Below, piece after piece: positions 717 through 27,207 of a stretch of DNA of 64,000 nucleotides. The stretch is from the NCBI GenBank assembly GCA_000092065.1, contig CP000582.1; one strand, given 5' to 3'. This DNA is from Ostreococcus lucimarinus. Its lineage: Eukaryota. A program made the position numbers and the translations under genes. Each line of letters opens with the position of its first letter. Position 1 is the stretch's first letter. Under the pieces are notes generated by a model, which worked only from the letters and a program-made list of their open reading frames with translations, did no database searches and was not told the origin of the DNA.

Positions 717-3239
717 TCACACGATAAAGTATCTTCTCGCGAGGGGCAGCTCTTGCGCAGGCTGACTTTTCAACACGACACCGTCTGCTCGAACCTCATA
801 TGTTTCTGGATCGACTTCTATCCTCGGGCACGCGTTATTCAAAACCATATCGTCTTTGCTAAGGCCTCTGCATTTGACCACAGCCTCGACGCGTTTATTG
901 AGACCGTACTCGGCGCCAACATCCGCGGCGGCGGCCGCGGCGCTCACGAACGCTATGCAAGTCTTCCCCGGTTTGAGAGCACCGAACATTCCTCGCATGA
1001 TGACAGGCTCAGGAGTCGGAATACTTGCATTTGGATCACCCATCTGCGCCCACGCGATTTGTCCGCCTTTAACGACGATTTCTGGCTTGGCGCCGAAGAA
1101 AGCTGGCTTCCAAATGACGACGTCGGCGAATTTTCCCACTTCTAGGCTGCCGACCTTGTGCGACATGCCATGAGCTATGGCAGGATTGATGGTATACTTC
1201 GCTACATACCGTTTCACCCGAACGTTATCCGCACCCGAGTTTGCATCTTCTTCAAGAAAACCTCGTTGTTCTTTATTAGAGTGTGCGGTTTGCCACGTGC
1301 GGCGAATGACTTCTCCGACCCGTCCCATGGCTTGCGAGTCGCTCGCCATGATACTAAGCGCACCCATATCGTGAAGAACATCTTCGGCCGCGATAGTTTC
1401 TGCACGAATGCGTGATTCAGCAAACGCAACGTCTTCCGGGATCTCGGGATCGAGATGATGGCACACCATGAGCATATCCAGATGCTCGTCCACGGTATTT
1501 TTTGTGTATGGTCGTGTTGGGTTCGTGGATGAAGGAAGGACCATTTTTTCACCACAAACCTTGATGATATCCGGCGCATGGCCACCACCAGCACCTTCAG
1601 AGTGATACGTATGAATAGTGCGACCTTTGAAAGCCTCAATGGATTTTTCGACGCAGCATGATTCGTTGAGCGTATCCGTGTGAATGGTGACGGCGACGTC
1701 GTACTCTTCTGCAATGGTGAGACAGTTGTCGATCGCAGCCGGTGTTGTGCCCCAATCCTCGTGTAGTTTCATACCGACAGCACCAGCTTTTATGATTTCG
1801 TGCAAGCCTTCGGGCGACGCCGTGTTTCCCTTGCCAGTGAACGCGAAATTGAGTGGTAGCGCATCCGTCGTCTCAAGCATGAACTGCATGTGCGCAGCAG
1901 AGGGCGTACACGTGGTCGCGCACGTTCCCGACGCTGGTCCTGTACCGCCGCCAAGGAGGGTTGTGATGCCGCTAGCGACAGCCTCAGTGCACAGTTGCGG
2001 ACAAATGTAGTGAATGTGCGTGTCCAGTGCTCCCGCGGTGACGATACATCCTTCCGCGGCAATGGCTTCGGTATTCACGCCGACAACCATCCCAGGGGTC
2101 ACGTCAGCGACGTCTGGATTACCACCGTGACCTATACCAACGATGTGACCATCTTTAATGCCGATATCAGCCTTATAAATACCACTATGATCGACTATCA
2201 GTGCGTTCGTGATGATTGTGTCGAGAGAATCAGCGTCGCCGACACCCGCCTGCTGCGACATTCCCTCGCGAAGCGTCTTACCGCCGCCAAATTTGGATTC
2301 TTCACCTTTCATCGTCAAGTCGCGCTCGGGGGTGATGTAAAGGTTCGTATCTCCCAGTCGTACGCGATCACCGATTGTGGGTCCGTACATGTGCGCGTAC
2401 TTGTGTCTCGGAATCATCAACGGCTCACCTTCGCCCAAATCGTCAGCGTCGACGTGCCCGAAGCCGCCGTCGATCACCCGCTTCATGACTTCGTCCAACC
2501 GATCCGCGGTCGCGGGTCCATTCACCAAATTGTTCCCACCTTTGACCACCCGGTTACCAGCGATATTCACCATATTCACAGTTTTCGACTCTCCAGGCTC
2601 GAATCGCACCGCCGTGCCGCTCGGAATGGCCAAACGCGCTCCGTACGCTCGCCGGCGATCAAACGTCAGAAACCGATTCGCCTCGATGAGGTGAAAGTGG
2701 CTTCCCACTTGAATCGGTCGATCACACGTGTTCGTTACCTTCAGTTTTCGTTTCGGTCTTCCCGCCAGGAGCTCTAAAGAATCCTTCGACGTACGAACCT
2801 CCCCCGGCGCCGGTGTCTTCTCCTTTGTCGCCGGAGGAAACGCCTTCTCGCTCGGTTTCGGTAAAAACGATCCCAGCAGCGCGAGTTCGAGATCGACGTC
2901 ATCCGCACATATCGCATCGTGAATCGTGATCAACTTCGTCCCATCGTCGAACGTCGTCTCTATCTGCACGTCGCCCACGAGTTCCGGGACGCCGTCGAGC
3001 ACGTGTCGTCGTCCGAGCACGCGCTTTCCCAAATCCTGCACCTCCACCGACGTCAGCGCGCGCCGTTCCCCGTCCTTATCGAACTTTGGATCTCTCACGA
3101 GCTCGACGCACTGCATCGCGATCAACGCCACGGCCTCCGGGTGGTTCAAACGCATTCCACGCGCGAGTCTTCGCTGCGCCACGCGTCCCGCGGCGAAGAG
3201 AATGTTCAGTTTATCGATCTCACACGGCGTGAGACGCAT
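717..3239 (-). CDS. URE: Urease, single-chain eukaryotic type (gamma-beta-alpha fused), 841 aa
   Basis: Continuous ORF with N-terminus [18 protein letters not shown] (gamma-like). Alpha-subunit motifs present: [51 protein letters not shown]. Start trimmed from the ORF-track 3869 to the ATG at 3239, where homology begins. Confidence 0.93.
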
Positions 3240-23997: not shown

Positions 23998-24106
23998 TTC
24001 AGATTGATTACACTGTAGAACAGAATACTGTAGCATCGGCGCTCAAAGATATGTCGTACAGAGACGCTCAAAGGAGAACACGCCCGTCCGCGTCCTCGTT
24101 TACTCC

Positions 24107-24205
24107 TCCGCATCCGCATCCGCATCCGCATCCTCCTCCTCCTCCTCTTCCTCCTCTTTCTCCTCTTCCTCCTCTTTCTTTTCCTCCTCTTTCTCTTTCT
24201 TCTTG
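24107..24205. repeat. Compound microsatellite: (CCGCAT)4 then (CCT)n and CT-rich tract
   Basis: ccgcatccgcatccgcatccgcatcctcctcctcctcct... read directly from the sequence. It encodes an acidic poly-Glu tail in minus-strand ORF 24100..24573. Confidence 0.8.
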
Positions 24206-24984
24206 CCGCACTCCGATTCCTCGTCCTCCTCGTCGCATTCGTCGTCGTCGCCGCCGCCGCCGCTCGCCCGGCCGATGCGCGCGCGCGACCCACCACTTCG
24301 TCGCATGTACCGCGCCCGCGATTTATCCACCGCCGCCTTGCGATCGTACAACAACGAGCGTCGCGCGCCCGGCGTCGGCCTCGCGACGTCCGCGTCGTCC
24401 GCGTCCGTCGCCCGCGCCTCCGTCACCGCCTCCGCGTTCGCCAGCGCGATCGCGTTCGCGAGCGACGACGCGCCCGTGAGCGCGACGCACGCGACGCCGG
24501 CCGTCGTGGCGAGCGCGAACAGGCGCGCGCGCGCGCGGCGTCCGCGCGAATGGTGTTCGCGAGGTCGAGACATTCTTCGACGATTCGCGTCGCTTCGGCG
24601 CGCGTTCGACCGCGCGGTTCGTTCGGCGCGCGCCGCGAGACGTCGAGCGTCCCGGGTCGTCGAGCGCGGGGCGTCGAGCGCGCGCCGCGCGTCGGCGTGC
24701 GGTCGCGCGTCGCGTCGATCCGAGGCGTCCGCGGTGTGGTCGCCGCGCGGAAAAATTTATATATCGCCCCTTTAGAGAGTACCTACACACATGACGAGTC
24801 ATGAACCGTGGATATATACGTATTTTACACCGTTTAGTTCTAAAAGTTTGATTCTACAACATCTACGAGAGGTAGTTCCTAATGCTAATTTGCTCGCCTT
24901 TGCTTGCCTTGCGTTTGTGTTCATCGACCATCTTCTCGTGCAGAGATGATTTCAAGTGCGATTAAATGATTGGATGACGTGTTA

Positions 24985-26301
24985 TCAAAAGGACCCGTGT
25001 CGGGCGACGATTTCTGATACTGATGAACCATTAAGTATGTCTTGACGTATACTGCTCTCAGAAAATACTCGCTTTAAAGCTTCTTCAATCACGATATTTC
25101 CAAACCGTCTTGGGATAATCAGTGTTCCTTCTTGATCACTGAAAATCAAATCTCCCGGACAGCACGAGACGCCATCCAAGCTAATACACTGATTTGTTGA
25201 CTCTACTGTAGCAACACCTCTCACATCAGAGCAGGTTGAACCGGCTGCGTAGACGGGAAAGTTCGAACATTTCACTTCCACTGTATCGCGTGTAAAACCA
25301 TTCGTGACGAAACCGGCGGCTCCCCTCGTTATGGCAATGTGAGCATTAAGATCGCCAAAATATGCTCGTCCCTTCATCGGATTTTCTACTACGATAACGT
25401 CACCGAAGCCGACGTAGTTGTATGATTTTAGAGCACCATAGATTCCCCTGAGATCTTCACTTTCACGAAGAGGCCTTAACTTAAGTGTGCAAGCACGACC
25501 GAAGACCTTGCTCAGTGCGCCTTGTGGTTTTAAGCCGAAGACCACTCGTCCACTTACGCCCATATCATCCAGCGTGTCTGATAAAATGGCACTGGTGAGA
25601 TGTAGTTTGGCGCACCTCAAGCGAGATAGACCAGCGACGCGGTGCGCTAAAGCGATATTGTTTGCAAGAGCGAAGTCAACTTCGTAGTTGATATCAACTG
25701 CTTCTTCTGGCGTAACATGCAGCATGTGTGGTTTGTTCCCTATCCTTCGCCGAGTCAGCTTCGCCGCATCTCTCGTAATGTTGTACAGCCCCATGGTCTC
25801 CACGGTAGTCGTTGGCAAATCAACTGAGTTGGGAATATTTTGGATATCATAGCTCGGCCCTGCCTTTGTCCACGTATACAGTTTATCATCGCGAACAGTG
25901 CACGCGGAGTCATAAACACCGGACATCACGCTCTCGACACCTTTCTTAATCGTTTCTGGATGTATGAACGGGCTTGTGCACAGCGCCTGCACATAGATTT
26001 CGGCATCGAATCGCTCAACTTCGTTCATGAACAGAGTGTTACCGTCCGTCTTGTTCGTGGCCAACGCCTCGTCCCGCTTTAGGAAAACTAACTTTGGATT
26101 ATCGCTCGCAAGAAATTCCGCCACCTTGAAAACATCATCGGACTCAGAGTCCAAGACAACTTTGTCAATAAAAGGACACTCGAAGAGCAACTTTTCCAAA
26201 GTGTGCAGGAAGAGTGGTTTGGAATCCAGCAGTTTCGTGTTCTTGCTCTCTACGCGACTCGATGTACCTTTGCACGGCACAAACGCAACGATCCGCGCCA
26301 T
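24985..26301 (-). CDS. Fusion of NeuA/KdsB-type sugar-acid cytidylyltransferase with an RraA-like domain, in a lower-GC island
   Basis: N-terminal MARIVAFVPCKGTSSRVESKNTKLLDSKPLFLHTLEKL (CMP-NeuAc/CMP-Kdo synthetase family). C-terminal GDVIVVEN...YFGDLNAHIAITRGAAGFVTNGFTRDTVEV...PVYAAG...CCPGDLIFSDQEGTLIIPRR (RraA/aldolase family). GC of the gene and its 3' flank is clearly below the neighbouring genes. Confidence 0.7.
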   Translation of the reverse strand: MARIVAFVPCKGTSSRVESKNTKLLDSKPLFLHTLEKLLFECPFIDKVVLDSESDDVFKVAEFLASDNPKLVFLKRDEALATNKTDGNTLFMNEVERFDAEIYVQALCTSPFIHPETIKKGVESVMSGVYDSACTVRDDKLYTWTKAGPSYDIQNIPNSVDLPTTTVETMGLYNITRDAAKLTRRRIGNKPHMLHVTPEEAVDINYEVDFALANNIALAHRVAGLSRLRCAKLHLTSAILSDTLDDMGVSGRVVFGLKPQGALSKVFGRACTLKLRPLRESEDLRGIYGALKSYNYVGFGDVIVVENPMKGRAYFGDLNAHIAITRGAAGFVTNGFTRDTVEVKCSNFPVYAAGSTCSDVRGVATVESTNQCISLDGVSCCPGDLIFSDQEGTLIIPRRFGNIVIEEALKRVFSESSIRQDILNGSSVSEIVARHGSF

Positions 26302-26640
26302 GAGAACGCAACACGATCGCCGGTGTCTCGAGAACGATCGTTTGAAGCGTCACAGCCGGGATGGGACCGCCCGGAGCGCGCGGCGTGATTAACTCTGGAA
26401 TCAGACGTCGGCGCTCGTGACTTCGAGCCGAAAGCGCGGCGAAGCCGCGAGTGTGGACAGCCGGTTTGGACGTCGGAGAACACATTCGTCGGCCAAAGTT
26501 TTTTTTAAATCGCCACTCGCGCGAATGGCCGCGTGACTCGACGACCGCGTGAACTGCGGTGACATCGCGACCGCGCGGCGCGACGCCCGCGCGCGCGCGC
26601 GACCGCGCGGCGACCGCGACCGCGCGACCGCGCGCGCGCC

Positions 26641-27207
26641 ATGTCCGCGACGCACGGCGCGTGCGCGCGCGCGCACGACGCCGCGAACGTCCCGGTGCTG
26701 ACGCTCATCGCCCTCGCCTGCGTCGCCGGCATCGCCGGCGCGCTCGACCCGCTCGTCGTCACGAAGGGGTTCCTGGCGTACATCGTCCTCGACGGGCTGT
26801 GGATCGCGCTCTGGCCGCGGTGCGTGCCGAGCGCGGCGGCGGTGGTGGTGGCGCACCACGTCGTCACGGCGGCGCTCTTGGCGTACCCGCTGCGACATCC
26901 GGAGCGCGCGATCGAAACGTGTAGGAACGGATTGGTGGAGGCGAACACGTTGTTTTTGATACTGCGGCGCCGGGTGCGGCGCGGGAGCGCGATGCACGCG
27001 GTGTGGAATGGGTTGTACGTCGCGACGCTGGCGCCGGTGCGATTCGCGTGGCAACCGTATTTGTTGTGGCACTTTTATGCGAACGTCACGAAGGACGACG
27101 TTTGGTGGGAGAAGGTGCAGGTGTGCGGGGCGCAGATGTTTTTGATCGGGTTTAACGTGTTTCTCGTCGCGCGACGACGCGTCGCGCCGGCGAAGAAGGA
27201 GGCGTAG
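26641..27207 (+). CDS. Hypothetical multi-pass membrane protein (TLC/TMEM-like)
   Basis: Five or six hydrophobic helices (VLTLIALACVAGIAG, FLAYIVLDGLWIALW, AVVVAHHVVTAALLAY...). No diagnostic motif. Confidence 0.35.
   Translation: MSATHGACARAHDAANVPVLTLIALACVAGIAGALDPLVVTKGFLAYIVLDGLWIALWPRCVPSAAAVVVAHHVVTAALLAYPLRHPERAIETCRNGLVEANTLFLILRRRVRRGSAMHAVWNGLYVATLAPVRFAWQPYLLWHFYANVTKDDVWWEKVQVCGAQMFLIGFNVFLVARRRVAPAKKEA

What the first reader, a model, noticed from the sequence alone, without database searches (positions are those of the whole stretch)
24780..26320. Lower-GC island with a cytidylyltransferase (NeuA/KdsB-type) fused to an RraA-like domain
Minus-strand gene 24985..26301 joins a CMP-sugar-acid synthetase N-domain to an RraA/aldolase-family C-domain, a combination I do not recognise as standard. 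The gene and its 3' flank (24800..24985, AT-rich) have markedly lower GC and different codon usage from every neighbour. That compositional anomaly is compatible with a horizontally acquired bacterial or viral gene; prasinoviruses, for example, are low-GC and sugar-enzyme-rich. A host gene with relaxed codon bias is the alternative explanation. Keto-deoxy sugar acids such as Kdo are prominent in prasinophyte cell coverings, so a CMP-Kdo-type activity is biologically plausible.
Basis: partly seen in the sequence, partly recalled or inferred. Interest (0 to 1): 0.6.

Follow-up and report, generated by a model that had tools for sequence, protein, structure and literature searches.

The report
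Bacterial-type sugar-acid enzyme in alga
An intact Ostreococcus nuclear gene encodes a two-domain enzyme that is common in bacterial capsule gene clusters and most likely activates the surface sugar acid Kdo; the gene and its odd composition are real, but the fusion is an old bacterial design acquired long ago, not an algal or viral invention.

Summary
Window 24985..26301 (-) is one intact 438-aa ORF with an N-terminal CTP_transf_3 cytidylyltransferase domain and a C-terminal RraA-like domain. Its GC3 is 0.494, against 0.60-0.90 for 39 other window ORFs (z = -4.6). Its codon adaptation is the lowest in the window (z = -3.9).

The interpretation needs revising. The fusion is a highly conserved family found across many bacterial phyla, a few archaea and T4-like phages. 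In bacteria it usually lies in capsule or O-antigen loci beside true KpsF/KdsD, KdsA and KdsC genes, in the position of the CMP-Kdo synthetase.

Algal copies form one clade (NJ bootstrap 100) in three lineages. In two of them the gene sits beside the alga's own vertically inherited KdsA and GT29 genes. GT29 is the family of plant Kdo transferases. No algal-virus relative was found.

GC3 is about 0.50 in all three algal lineages whatever the genomic background. It therefore does not mark a recent transfer.

The RraA-like half keeps the catalytic Arg and the metal ligands of HMG/CHA aldolase, so it is probably an enzyme. Its reaction is unknown.

Best reading: an anciently acquired bifunctional Kdo-pathway enzyme of an uncharacterised family.

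The parts
24985..26301 (-). Complete single-exon CDS (438 aa plus stop) of the cytidylyltransferase/RraA-like fusion protein
   Evidence: ORF list; Pfam; full-length alignment to fused homologs; confident AF2 model. RefSeq XP_001416485.1 (133 aa, partial) equals aa 301-433 only.
25654..26301 (-). N-terminal CMP-ulosonic-acid synthetase domain (aa 1-216), NeuA/PseF-like rather than KdsB-like; no N-terminal targeting extension
   Evidence: PF02348. Sequence match to the CMP-Kdn synthetase PpNeuA, 9t4z, over aa 2-216. Foldseek matches to CMP-Neu5Ac and CMP-Kdn synthetases, then to KdsB. The start aligns with the bacterial start.
26239..26277 (-). Nucleotide-binding loop PCKGTSSRVESKN (aa 9-21); P9, K11, G12, S14, R16, K20 and N21 are invariant in the family
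   Evidence: Translation; invariant columns. Assigning this loop to CTP binding rests on general knowledge of NeuA/KdsB enzymes.
25606..25683 (-). Long inter-domain helix (aa 207-232)
   Evidence: DSSP on the AF2 model, H207-232.
24988..25602 (-). C-terminal 'long' RraA-like / HMG-CHA-aldolase-like domain (aa 234-438)
   Evidence: PF03737. Best solved relatives are 3k4i, 5x15, 3noj and 2c5q by sequence and by fold.
25276..25356 (-). Catalytic segment GDLNAHIAITRGAAGFVTNGFTRDTVE (aa 316-342). G316, D317, R338 and D339 align with Gly101, Asp102, Arg123 and Asp124 of HMG/CHA aldolase
   Evidence: Translation; phmmer alignment to 3NOJ; roles of Arg-123 (enolate stabilisation) and Asp-124 (metal ligand) from PMC5065237. 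G316, R338 and D339 are invariant in the family; position 317 is Asp here and Glu in most other members.
25057..25059 (-). E415, invariant in the family; by register it corresponds to the metal ligand Glu-199 of HMG/CHA aldolase
   Evidence: Translation; invariant column. The alignment to 3NOJ ends at chain residue 197 = query 413, so the E415/E199 match is extrapolated by two residues. Role of Glu-199 from PMC5065237.
24780..24984 (-). AT-rich 3' flank (GC 0.40). Four independent SRA-run assemblies all end at 24912, 73 nt past the stop, which may mark a transcript 3' end
   Evidence: The poly(A)-site reading is an inference; the nature of the runs was not checked.
26302..26640 (.). GC-normal (0.68) intergenic region shared with the divergent TLC-domain gene 26641..27207 (+); presumed promoter region
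   Evidence: The promoter function is inferred only.

Best explanation
The gene encodes a bifunctional enzyme of a Kdo-type (3-deoxy-2-ulosonic acid) pathway. It belongs to a conserved but biochemically uncharacterised family that is mainly bacterial.

(1) The N-terminal NeuA-like domain uses CTP to make the CMP-activated sugar acid. The substrate is most likely Kdo or a close Kdo derivative such as an O-methyl form. The product would feed GT29-type transferases in the alga. Function is inferred from context, fold and motifs.

(2) The C-terminal RraA-like domain is a catalytically competent, metal-dependent class II pyruvate-aldolase-type domain. It would carry out enolate chemistry at C3/C4 of the open-chain 2-keto-3-deoxy acid: aldol formation or cleavage, C4 epimerisation, or dehydration. 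Residue conservation is shown; the reaction is inferred and unresolved.

(3) The gene entered an ancestor of the Ostreococcus/Bathycoccus-like lineages already fused, from a bacterial-type donor, long ago. It has since been kept under purifying selection.

(4) Its GC3 of about 0.50 is a maintained, gene-specific property, for example weak codon selection or weak biased gene conversion on a weakly expressed gene. It is not the mark of a recent transfer.

(5) The protein has no targeting extension, so it probably acts in the cytosol alongside the canonical plant-type CMP-Kdo synthetase.
For: Family and architecture:
- 465 hits were found; of the 120 listed, nearly all are full-length fusions at 47-60% identity. 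Named ones include Vibrio, Photobacterium, Aliarcobacter, Stutzerimonas, Pseudoalteromonas, Solidesulfovibrio and Marinitoga.
- 80 genome loci span many phyla and include archaea.
- The mean column identity of the alignment is 66%, and conservation runs through the linker.

Context:
- In V. vulnificus the order is wza-wzb-wzc, KdsA, KpsF, fusion, polysialyltransferase-family gene.
- Profile scans of the 80 loci find KpsF in about 40, KdsA in about 28 and KdsC in 15.
- These partners score above NCBIfam cut-offs as Kdo8P synthase, KpsF/GutQ isomerase and KdsC phosphatase.
- In the nearest bacterial relative (Azonexaceae) the fusion lies in a kpsM/T-kpsF-kpsC-kpsD-kpsS locus that has no kpsU.

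Algae:
- In the sister Ostreococcus lineage the fusion lies beside KpsF-like, KdsA and GT29 genes.
- In the GC-0.48 lineage it lies beside GT29, GT64, KdsA, FkbM methyltransferases and GT34.
- That KdsA is the green-lineage gene: 84-88% identical to O. lucimarinus KdsA, 64-70% to other green algae and plants, and about 43% to the bacterial neighbours. The same partnership was therefore rebuilt inside the eukaryote.
- GT29 enzymes are Kdo transferases in plants, and Kdo is the main scale sugar of prasinophytes (PMC13213038; PMC3355719).

Catalytic competence:
- G316, D317, R338, D339 and E415 match Gly101, Asp102, Arg123, Asp124 and Glu199 of HMG/CHA aldolase.
- An RraA-family enzyme, FlDet, acts on a 2-keto-3-deoxy sugar acid (PMC8563752).

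Origin:
- The algal sequences are monophyletic with bootstrap 100/100 and sit among bacterial sequences.
- Both halves have the same fused relatives.
- No other green-lineage hits appear in the top 120.

GC3: 0.494, 0.507 and 0.506 in the three lineages.

Canonical CKS: a genomic homolog is reported in Ostreococcus (PMC3355719, Table 1).
Against: - No member of the family has been characterised, so both activities are inferred.
- In the window itself the gene has no pathway partner nearby. O. lucimarinus KdsA lies among housekeeping genes on another contig.
- The N-domain fails the KdsB and PseF equivalog cut-offs. It also carries Asn (N205, invariant) where I recall a second metal-binding Asp in NeuA-type enzymes.
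- With KdsA, KdsC and KpsF already supplying free Kdo, the need for an aldolase-type step is unexplained.
- The window copy has lost a few residues that are invariant elsewhere (K271C, R363V, E401G, N321H).
- The phylogeny is neighbour-joining only, and the sister group is unresolved (support 31-82%).
- The apparent absence from O. tauri, Micromonas and B. prasinos rests on the top 120 hits of a word-seeded search.
- I have no expression data. The shared contig end at 24912 is only suggestive.
Confidence: 0.6

Rival explanations
1. The enzyme makes and activates a different ulosonic acid, not Kdo. The RraA-like domain would be the condensing aldolase (pyruvate plus an aldose or uronic aldehyde) and the N-domain would activate its product. 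Candidates are Dha (3-deoxy-lyxo-heptulosaric acid), a C4 epimer of Kdo, or Kdo made from D-arabinose plus pyruvate (the reaction of Kdo aldolase, EC 4.1.2.23).
For: - The catalytic residues of a class II pyruvate aldolase are conserved.
- RraA-family enzymes are known to handle 2-keto-3-deoxy dicarboxylic sugar acids (FlDet).
- The N-domain is NeuA/PseF-like, not KdsB-like.
- Ostreococcus already has a canonical CKS homolog, so a second activating enzyme suggests a second substrate.
- The same algal cluster holds a second cytidylyltransferase fused to a different pyruvate-aldolase-type fold (HMGL-like). Its relatives include HMGL + phosphatase + cytidylyltransferase triple fusions.
- The activated form of Dha is unknown, and prasinophyte walls contain Dha (PMC3355719).
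Against: - The dominant bacterial partners are exactly the three enzymes that make free Kdo. A self-sufficient aldolase route would make them unnecessary.
- The Azonexaceae locus pairs the fusion with KpsC/KpsS-family (Capsule_synth) genes; from general knowledge these are beta-Kdo transferases.
- No oxidoreductase that could convert Kdo to Dha is consistently present.
- No land-plant homolog of the fusion was seen, although land plants make Dha.
Confidence: 0.2
2. The RraA-like half is not an enzyme. It would be an oligomerisation or regulatory platform for the cytidylyltransferase, like the inactive KdsC-like C-terminal domain of vertebrate CMP-sialic acid synthetase, or like E. coli RraA, which acts by binding a protein.
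For: - CTP_transf_3 enzymes are often fused to accessory C-terminal domains. This rests on general knowledge and on the CTP_transf_3+Hydrolase_3 gene in locus L113.
- RraA-family proteins include non-catalytic regulators such as RraA and RraAS2, which appear in the fold hits.
- The Kdo pathway is already complete without an extra catalytic step.
Against: - The enolate-stabilising Arg and both acidic metal ligands are invariant across phyla, algae and phages. PMC5065237 states that homologs with these motifs probably act as class II pyruvate aldolases.
- The match to the RraA regulator equivalog model is far below its cut-off: 33.5 bits against 136.
Confidence: 0.15
3. The low GC reflects a recent horizontal acquisition from a low-GC donor, such as a prasinovirus, a phage or a low-GC bacterium, that has not yet drifted to the host's composition.
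For: - GC3 and CAI are extreme outliers.
- The gene sits alone among ordinary nuclear genes and is not syntenic with the sister-lineage loci.
- Phage and Azonexaceae-like homologs are low-GC: the fusion gene itself is 0.31-0.43 GC there.
Against: - The closest non-algal relative is only about 55% identical.
- Algal copies are monophyletic yet only 58-60% identical to each other, so the divergence is old.
- GC3 is about 0.50 in all three algal lineages.
- In the sister Ostreococcus, the vertically inherited KdsA next to the fusion also has low GC3 (0.515), so low GC3 does not diagnose foreign origin there.
- Two scans of IMG/VR found no algal-virus relative.
Confidence: 0.07
4. The gene is an ancient, vertically inherited eukaryotic or plastid-era gene that most green lineages have lost. 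It simply has relaxed codon bias.
For: - It is conserved in three algal lineages with strong purifying constraint.
- Its pathway partner KdsA is vertical.
- The canonical plant CKS itself is thought to be an ancient bacterial gift (PMC2490706 and PMC3355719).
Against: - No homolog from any other eukaryote appears among the 120 best hits, whereas the KdsA search returned many green algae and plants.
- The family is overwhelmingly bacterial and is embedded in bacterial polysaccharide loci.
Confidence: 0.08

Closest known systems
KdsB / KpsU (CMP-Kdo synthetase, EC 2.7.7.38) and plant CKS
   Same: Same superfamily fold: Foldseek matches to 2y6p, 1vic, 3duv and 1h7e. Same position in Kdo gene modules, next to KdsA, KpsF/KdsD and KdsC, and in the kpsU slot of a kps-type locus.
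   Different: It is not a KdsB by sequence: 17.9 bits against a cut-off of 193. It is closer to NeuA/PseF-type enzymes. It carries an extra 200-aa RraA-like domain. It has no mitochondrial-type extension, whereas plant CKS is mitochondrial (PMC13213038).
CMP-sialic acid / CMP-Kdn / CMP-pseudaminic acid synthetases (NeuA, PpNeuA, PseF), including bifunctional NeuA and CMAS forms
   Same: These are the best sequence and fold matches for aa 1-216: 9t4z, 6ifd, 1qwj, 1eyr and 9ftc. There is a precedent for a C-terminal accessory domain on this enzyme class; this rests on general knowledge and on the CTP_transf_3+Hydrolase_3 gene in L113.
   Different: The equivalog cut-offs are not reached (PseF 36.5 bits against 205.7). 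The usual partners are Kdo enzymes, not NeuB/NeuC-type enzymes. The accessory domain is an aldolase-like fold, not an esterase or phosphatase.
HMG/CHA aldolase (LigK/ProA/GalC; PDB 3NOJ) and other 'long' RraA-like proteins (Yer010c, PSPTO_3204 3k4i, RraAS2 5x15)
   Same: Same fold (TM to target 0.67-0.86). The pyruvate-pocket Gly, the catalytic Arg and the acidic metal ligands are conserved.
   Different: Only 18-26% identical. Scores are far below the LigK/PcmE equivalog cut-offs (55-58 bits against 179-304). It is fused to a nucleotidyltransferase and sits in polysaccharide loci, not aromatic-degradation loci.
FlDet, an RraA-family 2-keto-3-deoxy-glucarate dehydratase/decarboxylase (PMC8563752)
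   Same: It shows that the RraA fold can process 2-keto-3-deoxy sugar acids, the chemical class of Kdo and Dha.
   Different: FlDet is catabolic, stand-alone and from an alginate pathway. I made no direct sequence comparison here.
E. coli RraA (protein inhibitor of RNase E)
   Same: Same Pfam family and core fold.
   Different: The regulator equivalog is not met (33.5 bits against 136). The fusion family keeps the aldolase-type catalytic motif. From my recollection, E. coli RraA lacks that motif; I did not check this here.

Membership tests
CTP_transf_3 cytidylyltransferases (CMP-ulosonic acid synthetases) | Pfam PF02348 match above the gathering score | tested here: met
   43.8 bits against 22.6, aa 6-129.
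CTP_transf_3 cytidylyltransferases (CMP-ulosonic acid synthetases) | Fold of CMP-Neu5Ac / CMP-Kdn / CMP-Kdo synthetases | tested here: met
   Foldseek E 1e-15 to 1e-9, probability 1.00, to 6ifd, 9t4z, 1qwj, 1eyr, 2y6p and 1vic on a pLDDT-86.8 model.
CTP_transf_3 cytidylyltransferases (CMP-ulosonic acid synthetases) | N-terminal nucleotide-binding loop with basic residues, and acidic metal ligands near the C-terminal end of the domain | tested here: inconclusive
   The loop P9-x-K11-G12-x-S14-x-R16...K20-N21 is invariant. The later motif reads D203-I-N205 with an invariant Asn where I recall a second Asp in NeuA. That comparison rests on memory and was not aligned here.
KdsB (CMP-Kdo synthetase) equivalog | NCBIfam KdsB model above its cut-off | tested here: not met
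   NF003952: 17.9 bits against 193. It is therefore not filed as KdsB, only as 'works in the KdsB position'.
KdsB (CMP-Kdo synthetase) equivalog | CTP + Kdo -> CMP-Kdo + PPi activity | not testable with these tools
   Needs an enzyme assay.
Kdo biosynthesis gene module (KdsD/KpsF - KdsA - KdsC - cytidylyltransferase) | Adjacent to true KdsA, KpsF and KdsC genes | tested here: met
   Met for the family: KpsF in about 40, KdsA in about 28 and KdsC in 15 of 80 loci, with equivalog-level scores. Also met in two algal lineages. Not met for the window copy itself: the window has no partner, and O. lucimarinus KdsA lies elsewhere.
RraA-like / HMG-CHA aldolase family (class II pyruvate aldolases) | [quoted passage not shown] | tested here: met
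   83 bits against 24.5. Foldseek matches to 3k4i, 5x15, 2c5q and 3noj.
RraA-like / HMG-CHA aldolase family (class II pyruvate aldolases) | Catalytic Arg (Arg-123), metal ligands (Asp-124, Glu-199) and pyruvate-pocket Gly-101 | tested here: met
   R338, D339 and G316 are aligned directly to 3NOJ. E415 is assigned by a two-residue extrapolation. All four are invariant in the family.
RraA-like / HMG-CHA aldolase family (class II pyruvate aldolases) | LigK/PcmE or HMG-aldolase equivalog score | tested here: not met
   TIGR02798: 55.1 bits against 304.5. NF006731: 57.6 against 179. NF009134: 37.4 against 196.
RraA (RNase E regulator) equivalog | NCBIfam RraA model above its cut-off | tested here: not met
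   NF006875: 33.5 bits against 136.
Horizontally acquired gene of bacterial type | The recipient clade is monophyletic, lies among donor-domain sequences, and other eukaryotes lack the gene | tested here: inconclusive
   Monophyly 100/100, but the sister group is unresolved (NJ only). No other eukaryote appears in the top 120 hits, but that sampling is word-seeded and truncated.
Prasinovirus / giant-virus derived gene | The closest relatives are encoded by algal viruses | tested here: not met
   The single-sequence IMG/VR scan found nothing. The profile scan found 19 contigs at 35-51% identity, and the main group carries a T4-type UvsX. L090/L091 group with Azonexaceae-like bacteria.

The most novel reading that the evidence does not exclude
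The family is a new kind of bifunctional 'make or edit, then activate' enzyme for 3-deoxy-2-ulosonic acids. The RraA-like domain would be the gene for an aldolase-type step on Kdo-class sugars: the Kdo aldolase reaction, a C4 epimerisation, or synthesis of a diacid such as Dha. The N-domain would produce the matching CMP-sugar. In Ostreococcus and Bathycoccus-like algae it would supply GT29 transferases with a non-canonical donor. If that donor were Dha, this would identify the unknown activated form and the unknown route for a sugar found in prasinophyte coverings and in plant RG-II.
Probability: 0.15. Interest if true: 0.8.

Novelty: new variant of a known kind. Interest (0 to 1): 0.5.

Why it matters
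- Kdo-rich polymers build prasinophyte scales and plant RG-II. The cytosolic supply of CMP-Kdo to Golgi GT29 enzymes is an open question (PMC13213038), and so is the route to Dha (PMC3355719).
- Ostreococcus and Bathycoccus-like algae carry a second, bacterial-type activating enzyme. Its gene has repeatedly come to lie beside the alga's own KdsA, KpsF-like and GT29 genes. This gives a concrete, testable candidate.
- The same family is widespread in capsule and O-antigen loci of bacteria, including Vibrio vulnificus, Photobacterium damselae and Aliarcobacter butzleri, and in T4-like marine phages. No member has been characterised. One enzymology study would annotate hundreds of genes.
- The reference annotation of O. 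lucimarinus holds only a 133-aa fragment of this gene, so comparative studies have probably missed it.
- The case also shows that a strong GC3 and codon-usage outlier in Ostreococcus need not mean recent transfer.

Tried and rejected
1. Algal-virus origin. Two IMG/VR scans, a PHROG check and a tblastn of sequenced phages gave only phage-type or distant hits. Rejected.

2. Plasmid-borne donor. No plasmid carries the full fusion; only single-domain hits at 25-35% identity appear.

3. The RraA-like domain replaces the missing KdsC phosphatase. Rejected as a general rule: true KdsC genes accompany the fusion in 15 loci, including most Firmicutes loci and an archaeon.

4. The algal cluster is a transferred bacterial operon. 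Rejected: the clustered KdsA is the green-lineage gene.

5. The fusion arose in the alga. Rejected: both halves have the same fused relatives at similar identity.

6. Synteny between the window and the sister-lineage loci. None was found. O. lucimarinus KdsA is not clustered either.

7. A conserved gene immediately downstream of the fusion as a universal partner. The downstream genes are diverse and mostly lack any Pfam match.

8. Literature search for a characterised member. None was found.

9. Naming the sister lineages through 90% protein clusters. Only unnamed marine-metagenome members and a mis-binned 'Acidimicrobiaceae' MAG came up.

10. Whether L109/L118 is nuclear or viral. Unresolved: it is compact and rich in glycosyltransferases, with uniform GC of 0.45-0.52.


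Full report
**Observation.** The window holds an uninterrupted 438-aa ORF on the minus strand at 24985..26301. Pfam finds a CTP_transf_3 cytidylyltransferase domain (aa 6-129, 43.8 bits) and an RraA-like domain (aa 238-394, 83 bits). NCBIfam gives only sub-threshold matches to PseF, KdsB, LigK-type aldolases and RraA. The compositional anomaly is real:
- GC is 0.40-0.51 across the gene and its 3' flank, against 0.6-0.78 on both sides.
- GC3 is 0.494, against 0.596-0.899 for 39 other ORF-level genes (mean 0.774, z = -4.6).
- Leave-one-out codon adaptation is 0.449, the lowest in the window (z = -3.9). Third-codon positions are almost equimolar.

The neighbours are ordinary nuclear genes: a Rai1-like nuclease, a TLC-domain protein, a prolyl 4-hydroxylase with a ShK domain, an LHC protein, an RNase H/exonuclease protein and a single-chain urease. 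Four independent assemblies are 100% identical to the window. One of them spans from the gene into the P4H and LHC genes, so this is not contamination. The organism is almost certainly Ostreococcus lucimarinus. RefSeq XP_001416485.1 ('predicted protein, partial', 133 aa) is identical to aa 301-433 of the ORF, and the P4H neighbour clusters with a UniRef O. 'lucimarinus' entry. The reference annotation therefore holds only a fragment of the gene.

**The fusion is a standard bacterial architecture.** A search of 5.8 billion proteins returned 465 hits. Of the 120 listed, nearly all are full-length fusions of about 430 aa at 47-60% identity. Named examples come from Vibrio vulnificus, Photobacterium damselae, Aliarcobacter butzleri, Stutzerimonas, Pseudoalteromonas, Solidesulfovibrio, Marinitoga and Burkholderiaceae. 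A 16-sequence alignment has 66% mean column identity and 107 invariant columns, and conservation runs through the linker. A scan of one genome per species found 80 loci across Proteobacteria, Bacteroidota, Firmicutes, Acidobacteriota, Planctomycetota, Cyanobacteria/Melainabacteria, Campylobacterota and archaea. The window protein keeps 106 of the 121 residues that are invariant in 13 non-algal members. Both halves have the same fused proteins as nearest relatives (N-domain 0.53-0.61 identity, C-domain 0.45-0.51), so the alga received the gene already fused.

**What travels with it in bacteria.** In V. vulnificus the order is wza-wzb-wzc, DAHP_synth_1, SIS+CBS, fusion, a polysialyltransferase-family gene, a flippase, then glycosyltransferases. 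I clustered neighbours over 90 loci and ran profile scans. Recurring neighbours are:
- KpsF-like isomerases in about 40 of 80 genome loci
- KdsA-like synthases in about 28
- KdsC-like HAD phosphatases in 15
- Maf/MptE-like putative ulosonic-acid transferases
- TylF-type O-methyltransferases
- GDP-mannose dehydratases, GT2 and Wzy

NCBIfam confirms that the partners are true Kdo8P synthases (362-388 bits against a cut-off of 314), KpsF/GutQ isomerases and KdsC-family phosphatases. In the Azonexaceae genome that holds the nearest bacterial homolog, the fusion lies in a kpsM/kpsT - kpsF - kpsC - kpsD - kpsS type locus with no kpsU. The fusion thus takes the place of the CMP-Kdo synthetase in a complete Kdo module. 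KdsC accompanies it in most Firmicutes loci and in an archaeal locus, so the RraA-like half is not a general substitute for the phosphatase. Some loci differ. In Stutzerimonas the fusion sits with NeuB, a CTP_transf_3+Hydrolase_3 gene, a TylF methyltransferase and teichoic-type genes. In one Burkholderiaceae genome it is nearly alone.

**What travels with it in algae.** Besides the O. lucimarinus cluster (99%), three 90%-identity clusters at 58-60% identity come from unnamed marine picoeukaryotes.
- Lineage 1 (P0138/P0035; contigs up to 463-491 kb; housekeeping GC3 0.71-0.79). The fusion lies beside a KpsF-like gene, KdsA, one or two GT29 genes and a second fusion, CTP_transf_3+HMGL-like (644 aa). 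FtsH, TIM and syntaxin genes are nearby.
- Lineage 2 (P0002; GC 0.48, Bathycoccus-like by composition). The fusion lies beside GT29, GT64, KdsA, two FkbM-type methyltransferases and GT34.

The clustered KdsA is the ordinary green-lineage gene. It is 88% (lineage 1) and 84% (lineage 2) identical to O. lucimarinus KdsA, 64-70% to other prasinophytes, Chlorella and land plants, and about 43% to the bacterial KdsA neighbours. The algal clusters were therefore assembled inside the eukaryote around a vertically inherited gene. This independently recreates the bacterial partnership and is the strongest contextual evidence for a role in Kdo metabolism.

In O. lucimarinus itself the genes are dispersed. 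The window has no KdsA, KpsF or GT29 homolog. KdsA sits among PsaF, RPL6 and other housekeeping genes on another contig.

The literature supports the context. GT29 enzymes of plants are Kdo transferases and are expanded in scaly prasinophytes, and Kdo is the main scale sugar (PMC13213038; PMC3491373; PMC5811610). Prasinophyte walls contain Kdo, 5-O-methyl-Kdo and Dha, and the activated form of Dha is unknown (PMC3355719). That review's Table 1 also lists a genomic homolog of the canonical CMP-Kdo synthase in O. tauri/lucimarinus, so the fusion is an additional enzyme. I found no paper that links an RraA-like domain to a cytidylyltransferase.

**Structure and active sites.** The AlphaFold2 model is confident (mean pLDDT 86.8, pTM 0.86). 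It has a disordered loop at aa 160-169 and a long connecting helix at aa 207-232. Foldseek matches the N-half to CMP-Neu5Ac, CMP-Kdn and CMP-pseudaminic acid synthetases and then to KdsB. It matches the C-half to 'long' RraA-like proteins (3k4i, RraAS2, Yer010c, HMG/CHA aldolase). No solved chain has both domains.

The phmmer alignment to HMG/CHA aldolase (3NOJ) places G316, D317, R338 and D339 on Gly101, Asp102, Arg123 and Asp124. E415 falls two residues beyond the end of that alignment, in register with Glu199. According to PMC5065237, Arg-123 stabilises the pyruvate enolate and is essential, Asp-124 and Glu-199 bind the metal, and homologs with these motifs probably act as class II pyruvate aldolases. 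G316, R338, D339 and E415 are invariant in the family; position 317 is Asp in the window protein and Glu in most other members. An RraA-family enzyme, FlDet, dehydrates and decarboxylates a 2-keto-3-deoxy sugar acid (PMC8563752), so this fold is known to work on the chemical class of Kdo.

The N-domain keeps an invariant P-x-K-G-x-S-x-R...K-N loop. The protein starts exactly where the bacterial proteins start, with no targeting extension, so I infer that it is cytosolic.

**Origin.** In a neighbour-joining tree of 124 sequences (430 columns, Kimura distances, 100 bootstraps) the four algal sequences form one clade with 100% support. Deeper placement is weak. A 27-taxon group with T4-like phage, Acidobacteriota and Planctomycetota sequences gets 82% support, and the other deeper groupings get 10-71%. 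By raw distance the nearest sequences are an Azonexaceae-like group. This may be long-branch attraction.

The viral contigs are not algal viruses. The main group (GC about 0.35, tightly packed co-directional genes) carries a UvsX-like recombinase. L090/L091 are 71-80% identical to Azonexaceae-like sequences. No GenBank phage or plasmid carries the fusion. No O. tauri, Micromonas, B. prasinos or other eukaryote name appears in the 120 best hits, whereas the KdsA search returned many green algae and plants. The simplest history is one old acquisition of a bacterial-type gene in an ancestor of these Ostreococcus and Bathycoccus-like lineages, followed by descent and relocation. I rate this as likely but not proven.

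**Composition.** The fusion has GC3 of 0.494, 0.507 and 0.506 in the three algal lineages, against backgrounds of about 0.77, 0.71-0.79 and 0.42-0.50. At 58-60% protein identity, synonymous sites are long saturated. The low GC3 in both Ostreococcus lineages must therefore be maintained rather than inherited from a recent donor. In lineage 1 the adjacent vertical KdsA (0.515) and the KpsF-like gene (0.45) are also low. KdsA in O. lucimarinus, outside any cluster, has 0.687. Low GC3 thus goes with this pathway cluster rather than with foreign origin. I did not test the cause; weak expression or a local recombination or gene-conversion regime are candidates.

**Mechanism, with status.**
- *Shown:* domain identities, conservation of catalytic residues, gene contexts, monophyly and composition.
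- *Inferred, fairly strong:* the N-domain makes a CMP-activated Kdo-class sugar for GT29 enzymes in algae, or for Maf, polysialyltransferase-family and KpsC/S-type enzymes in bacteria.
- *Inferred, moderate:* the C-domain is an active metal-dependent enzyme that uses enolate chemistry on the open-chain 4-hydroxy-2-oxo acid.
- *Unknown:* which reaction it catalyses. Candidates are aldol synthesis or cleavage, C4 epimerisation by retro-aldol and aldol steps, dehydration, or simply handing the substrate over in the right form.

The second algal fusion joins the same kind of cytidylyltransferase to a different pyruvate-aldolase-type fold (HMGL-like). Its relatives include HMGL + phosphatase + cytidylyltransferase triple fusions. 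This suggests that coupling an aldolase-type step to CMP activation is a recurring design. It keeps open the reading that the substrate is not plain Kdo.

**Limits.**
- No member of the family has been characterised.
- The tree is distance-based.
- The protein search lists only the top 120 hits.
- The sister lineages are unnamed.
- Whether L109/L118 is nuclear or viral is unresolved.
- The shared assembly end at 24912, 73 nt after the stop, is only a hint of a poly(A) site.

**Verdict.** This is a real, intact and compositionally aberrant gene. Its 'unusual combination' and viral-origin ideas do not. The gene is a eukaryotic member of an uncharacterised, widespread bacterial family that stands in for KdsB/KpsU and adds an aldolase-like domain.

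Noticed in passing
L006 1-14567; L007 1-12038; L112 1-16219 (sister Ostreococcus-like lineage): A eukaryotic Kdo gene cluster: one or two GT29 genes, the fusion, a KpsF-like isomerase, the canonical green-type KdsA and a second cytidylyltransferase fusion, within about 10 kb among FtsH, TIM and syntaxin genes. The pathway genes have GC3 of 0.45-0.61, against 0.71-0.79 for the housekeeping neighbours. I found no description of this cluster in the literature searched.
   Followed up: partly
L006 4369-6303 (+); also L112 14359-16219 (-): A 644-aa CTP_transf_3 + HMGL-like (DmpG/isopropylmalate-synthase-type) fusion. It belongs to a small, mostly eukaryotic family (Triparma columacea 48%, MMETSP transcripts). 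More distant relatives are HMGL + HAD/Hydrolase_3 + CTP_transf_3 triple fusions and MptE(Maf)+HMGL fusions. No O. lucimarinus hit was seen.
   Followed up: partly
L109 / L118 1-16927 (GC 0.48 lineage): A very compact stretch (intergenic gaps of 7-20 bp) holding the fusion, GT29, GT64, KdsA, two FkbM methyltransferases, GT34 and several ORFs of unknown function. It could be a small-outlier-chromosome-like region of a Bathycoccus-like alga or a giant-virus fragment. Its KdsA is 84% identical to that of O. lucimarinus.
   Followed up: partly
window 24988-25386 (aa 301-433 of the ORF): RefSeq XP_001416485.1 / ABO94778.1 ('predicted protein, partial', 133 aa) covers only part of the RraA-like half. 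The reference gene model is truncated and lacks the whole cytidylyltransferase domain.
   Followed up: yes
Proteins P0141, P0215 and P0245 (MAK25163.1, MAK25161.1, MAK25162.1): A GenBank MAG contig labelled 'Acidimicrobiaceae bacterium' carries the algal fusion, the green-lineage KdsA and the KpsF-like gene. It is most likely a mis-binned picoeukaryote contig.
   Followed up: partly
L093-L103, L107-L108 (IMG/VR contigs up to 256 kb, GC about 0.35): T4-like phage contigs (UvsX-like recombinase) carry the fusion inside a sugar-gene island with Maf-like, FkbM methyltransferase, GT8, a nucleotide-sugar epimerase, a mannose-phosphate isomerase/cytidylyltransferase-like gene and repeated ORFs of unknown function.
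   Followed up: partly
window 24912: Four assemblies from four different SRA runs all end at exactly this base, 73 nt downstream of the stop codon, while their other ends differ (26453, 26618, 27002, 33439). This may be a poly(A) site or a systematic assembly break.
   Followed up: no
window 717-3239 (-): A single-chain urease (gamma, beta and alpha domains fused; 840 aa) has the second-lowest GC3 (0.596) and the second-lowest codon adaptation (0.551) in the window.
   Followed up: no
window 24100-24573 (-): The gene just downstream encodes a 157-aa protein with a strongly acidic Glu/Asp/Lys-rich tail and no Pfam match. The opposite strand of the same stretch reads as a Pro/Ser/Arg-rich low-complexity ORF.
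   Followed up: no
window protein aa 271, 321, 363 and 401: The O. lucimarinus copy has replaced four C-domain residues that are invariant in the 13 non-algal members aligned (K271C, N321H, R363V, E401G). Of the three algal copies it keeps the fewest bacterial-invariant residues: 106 of 121, against 108 and 112. This may reflect relaxed constraint or changed specificity.
   Followed up: no
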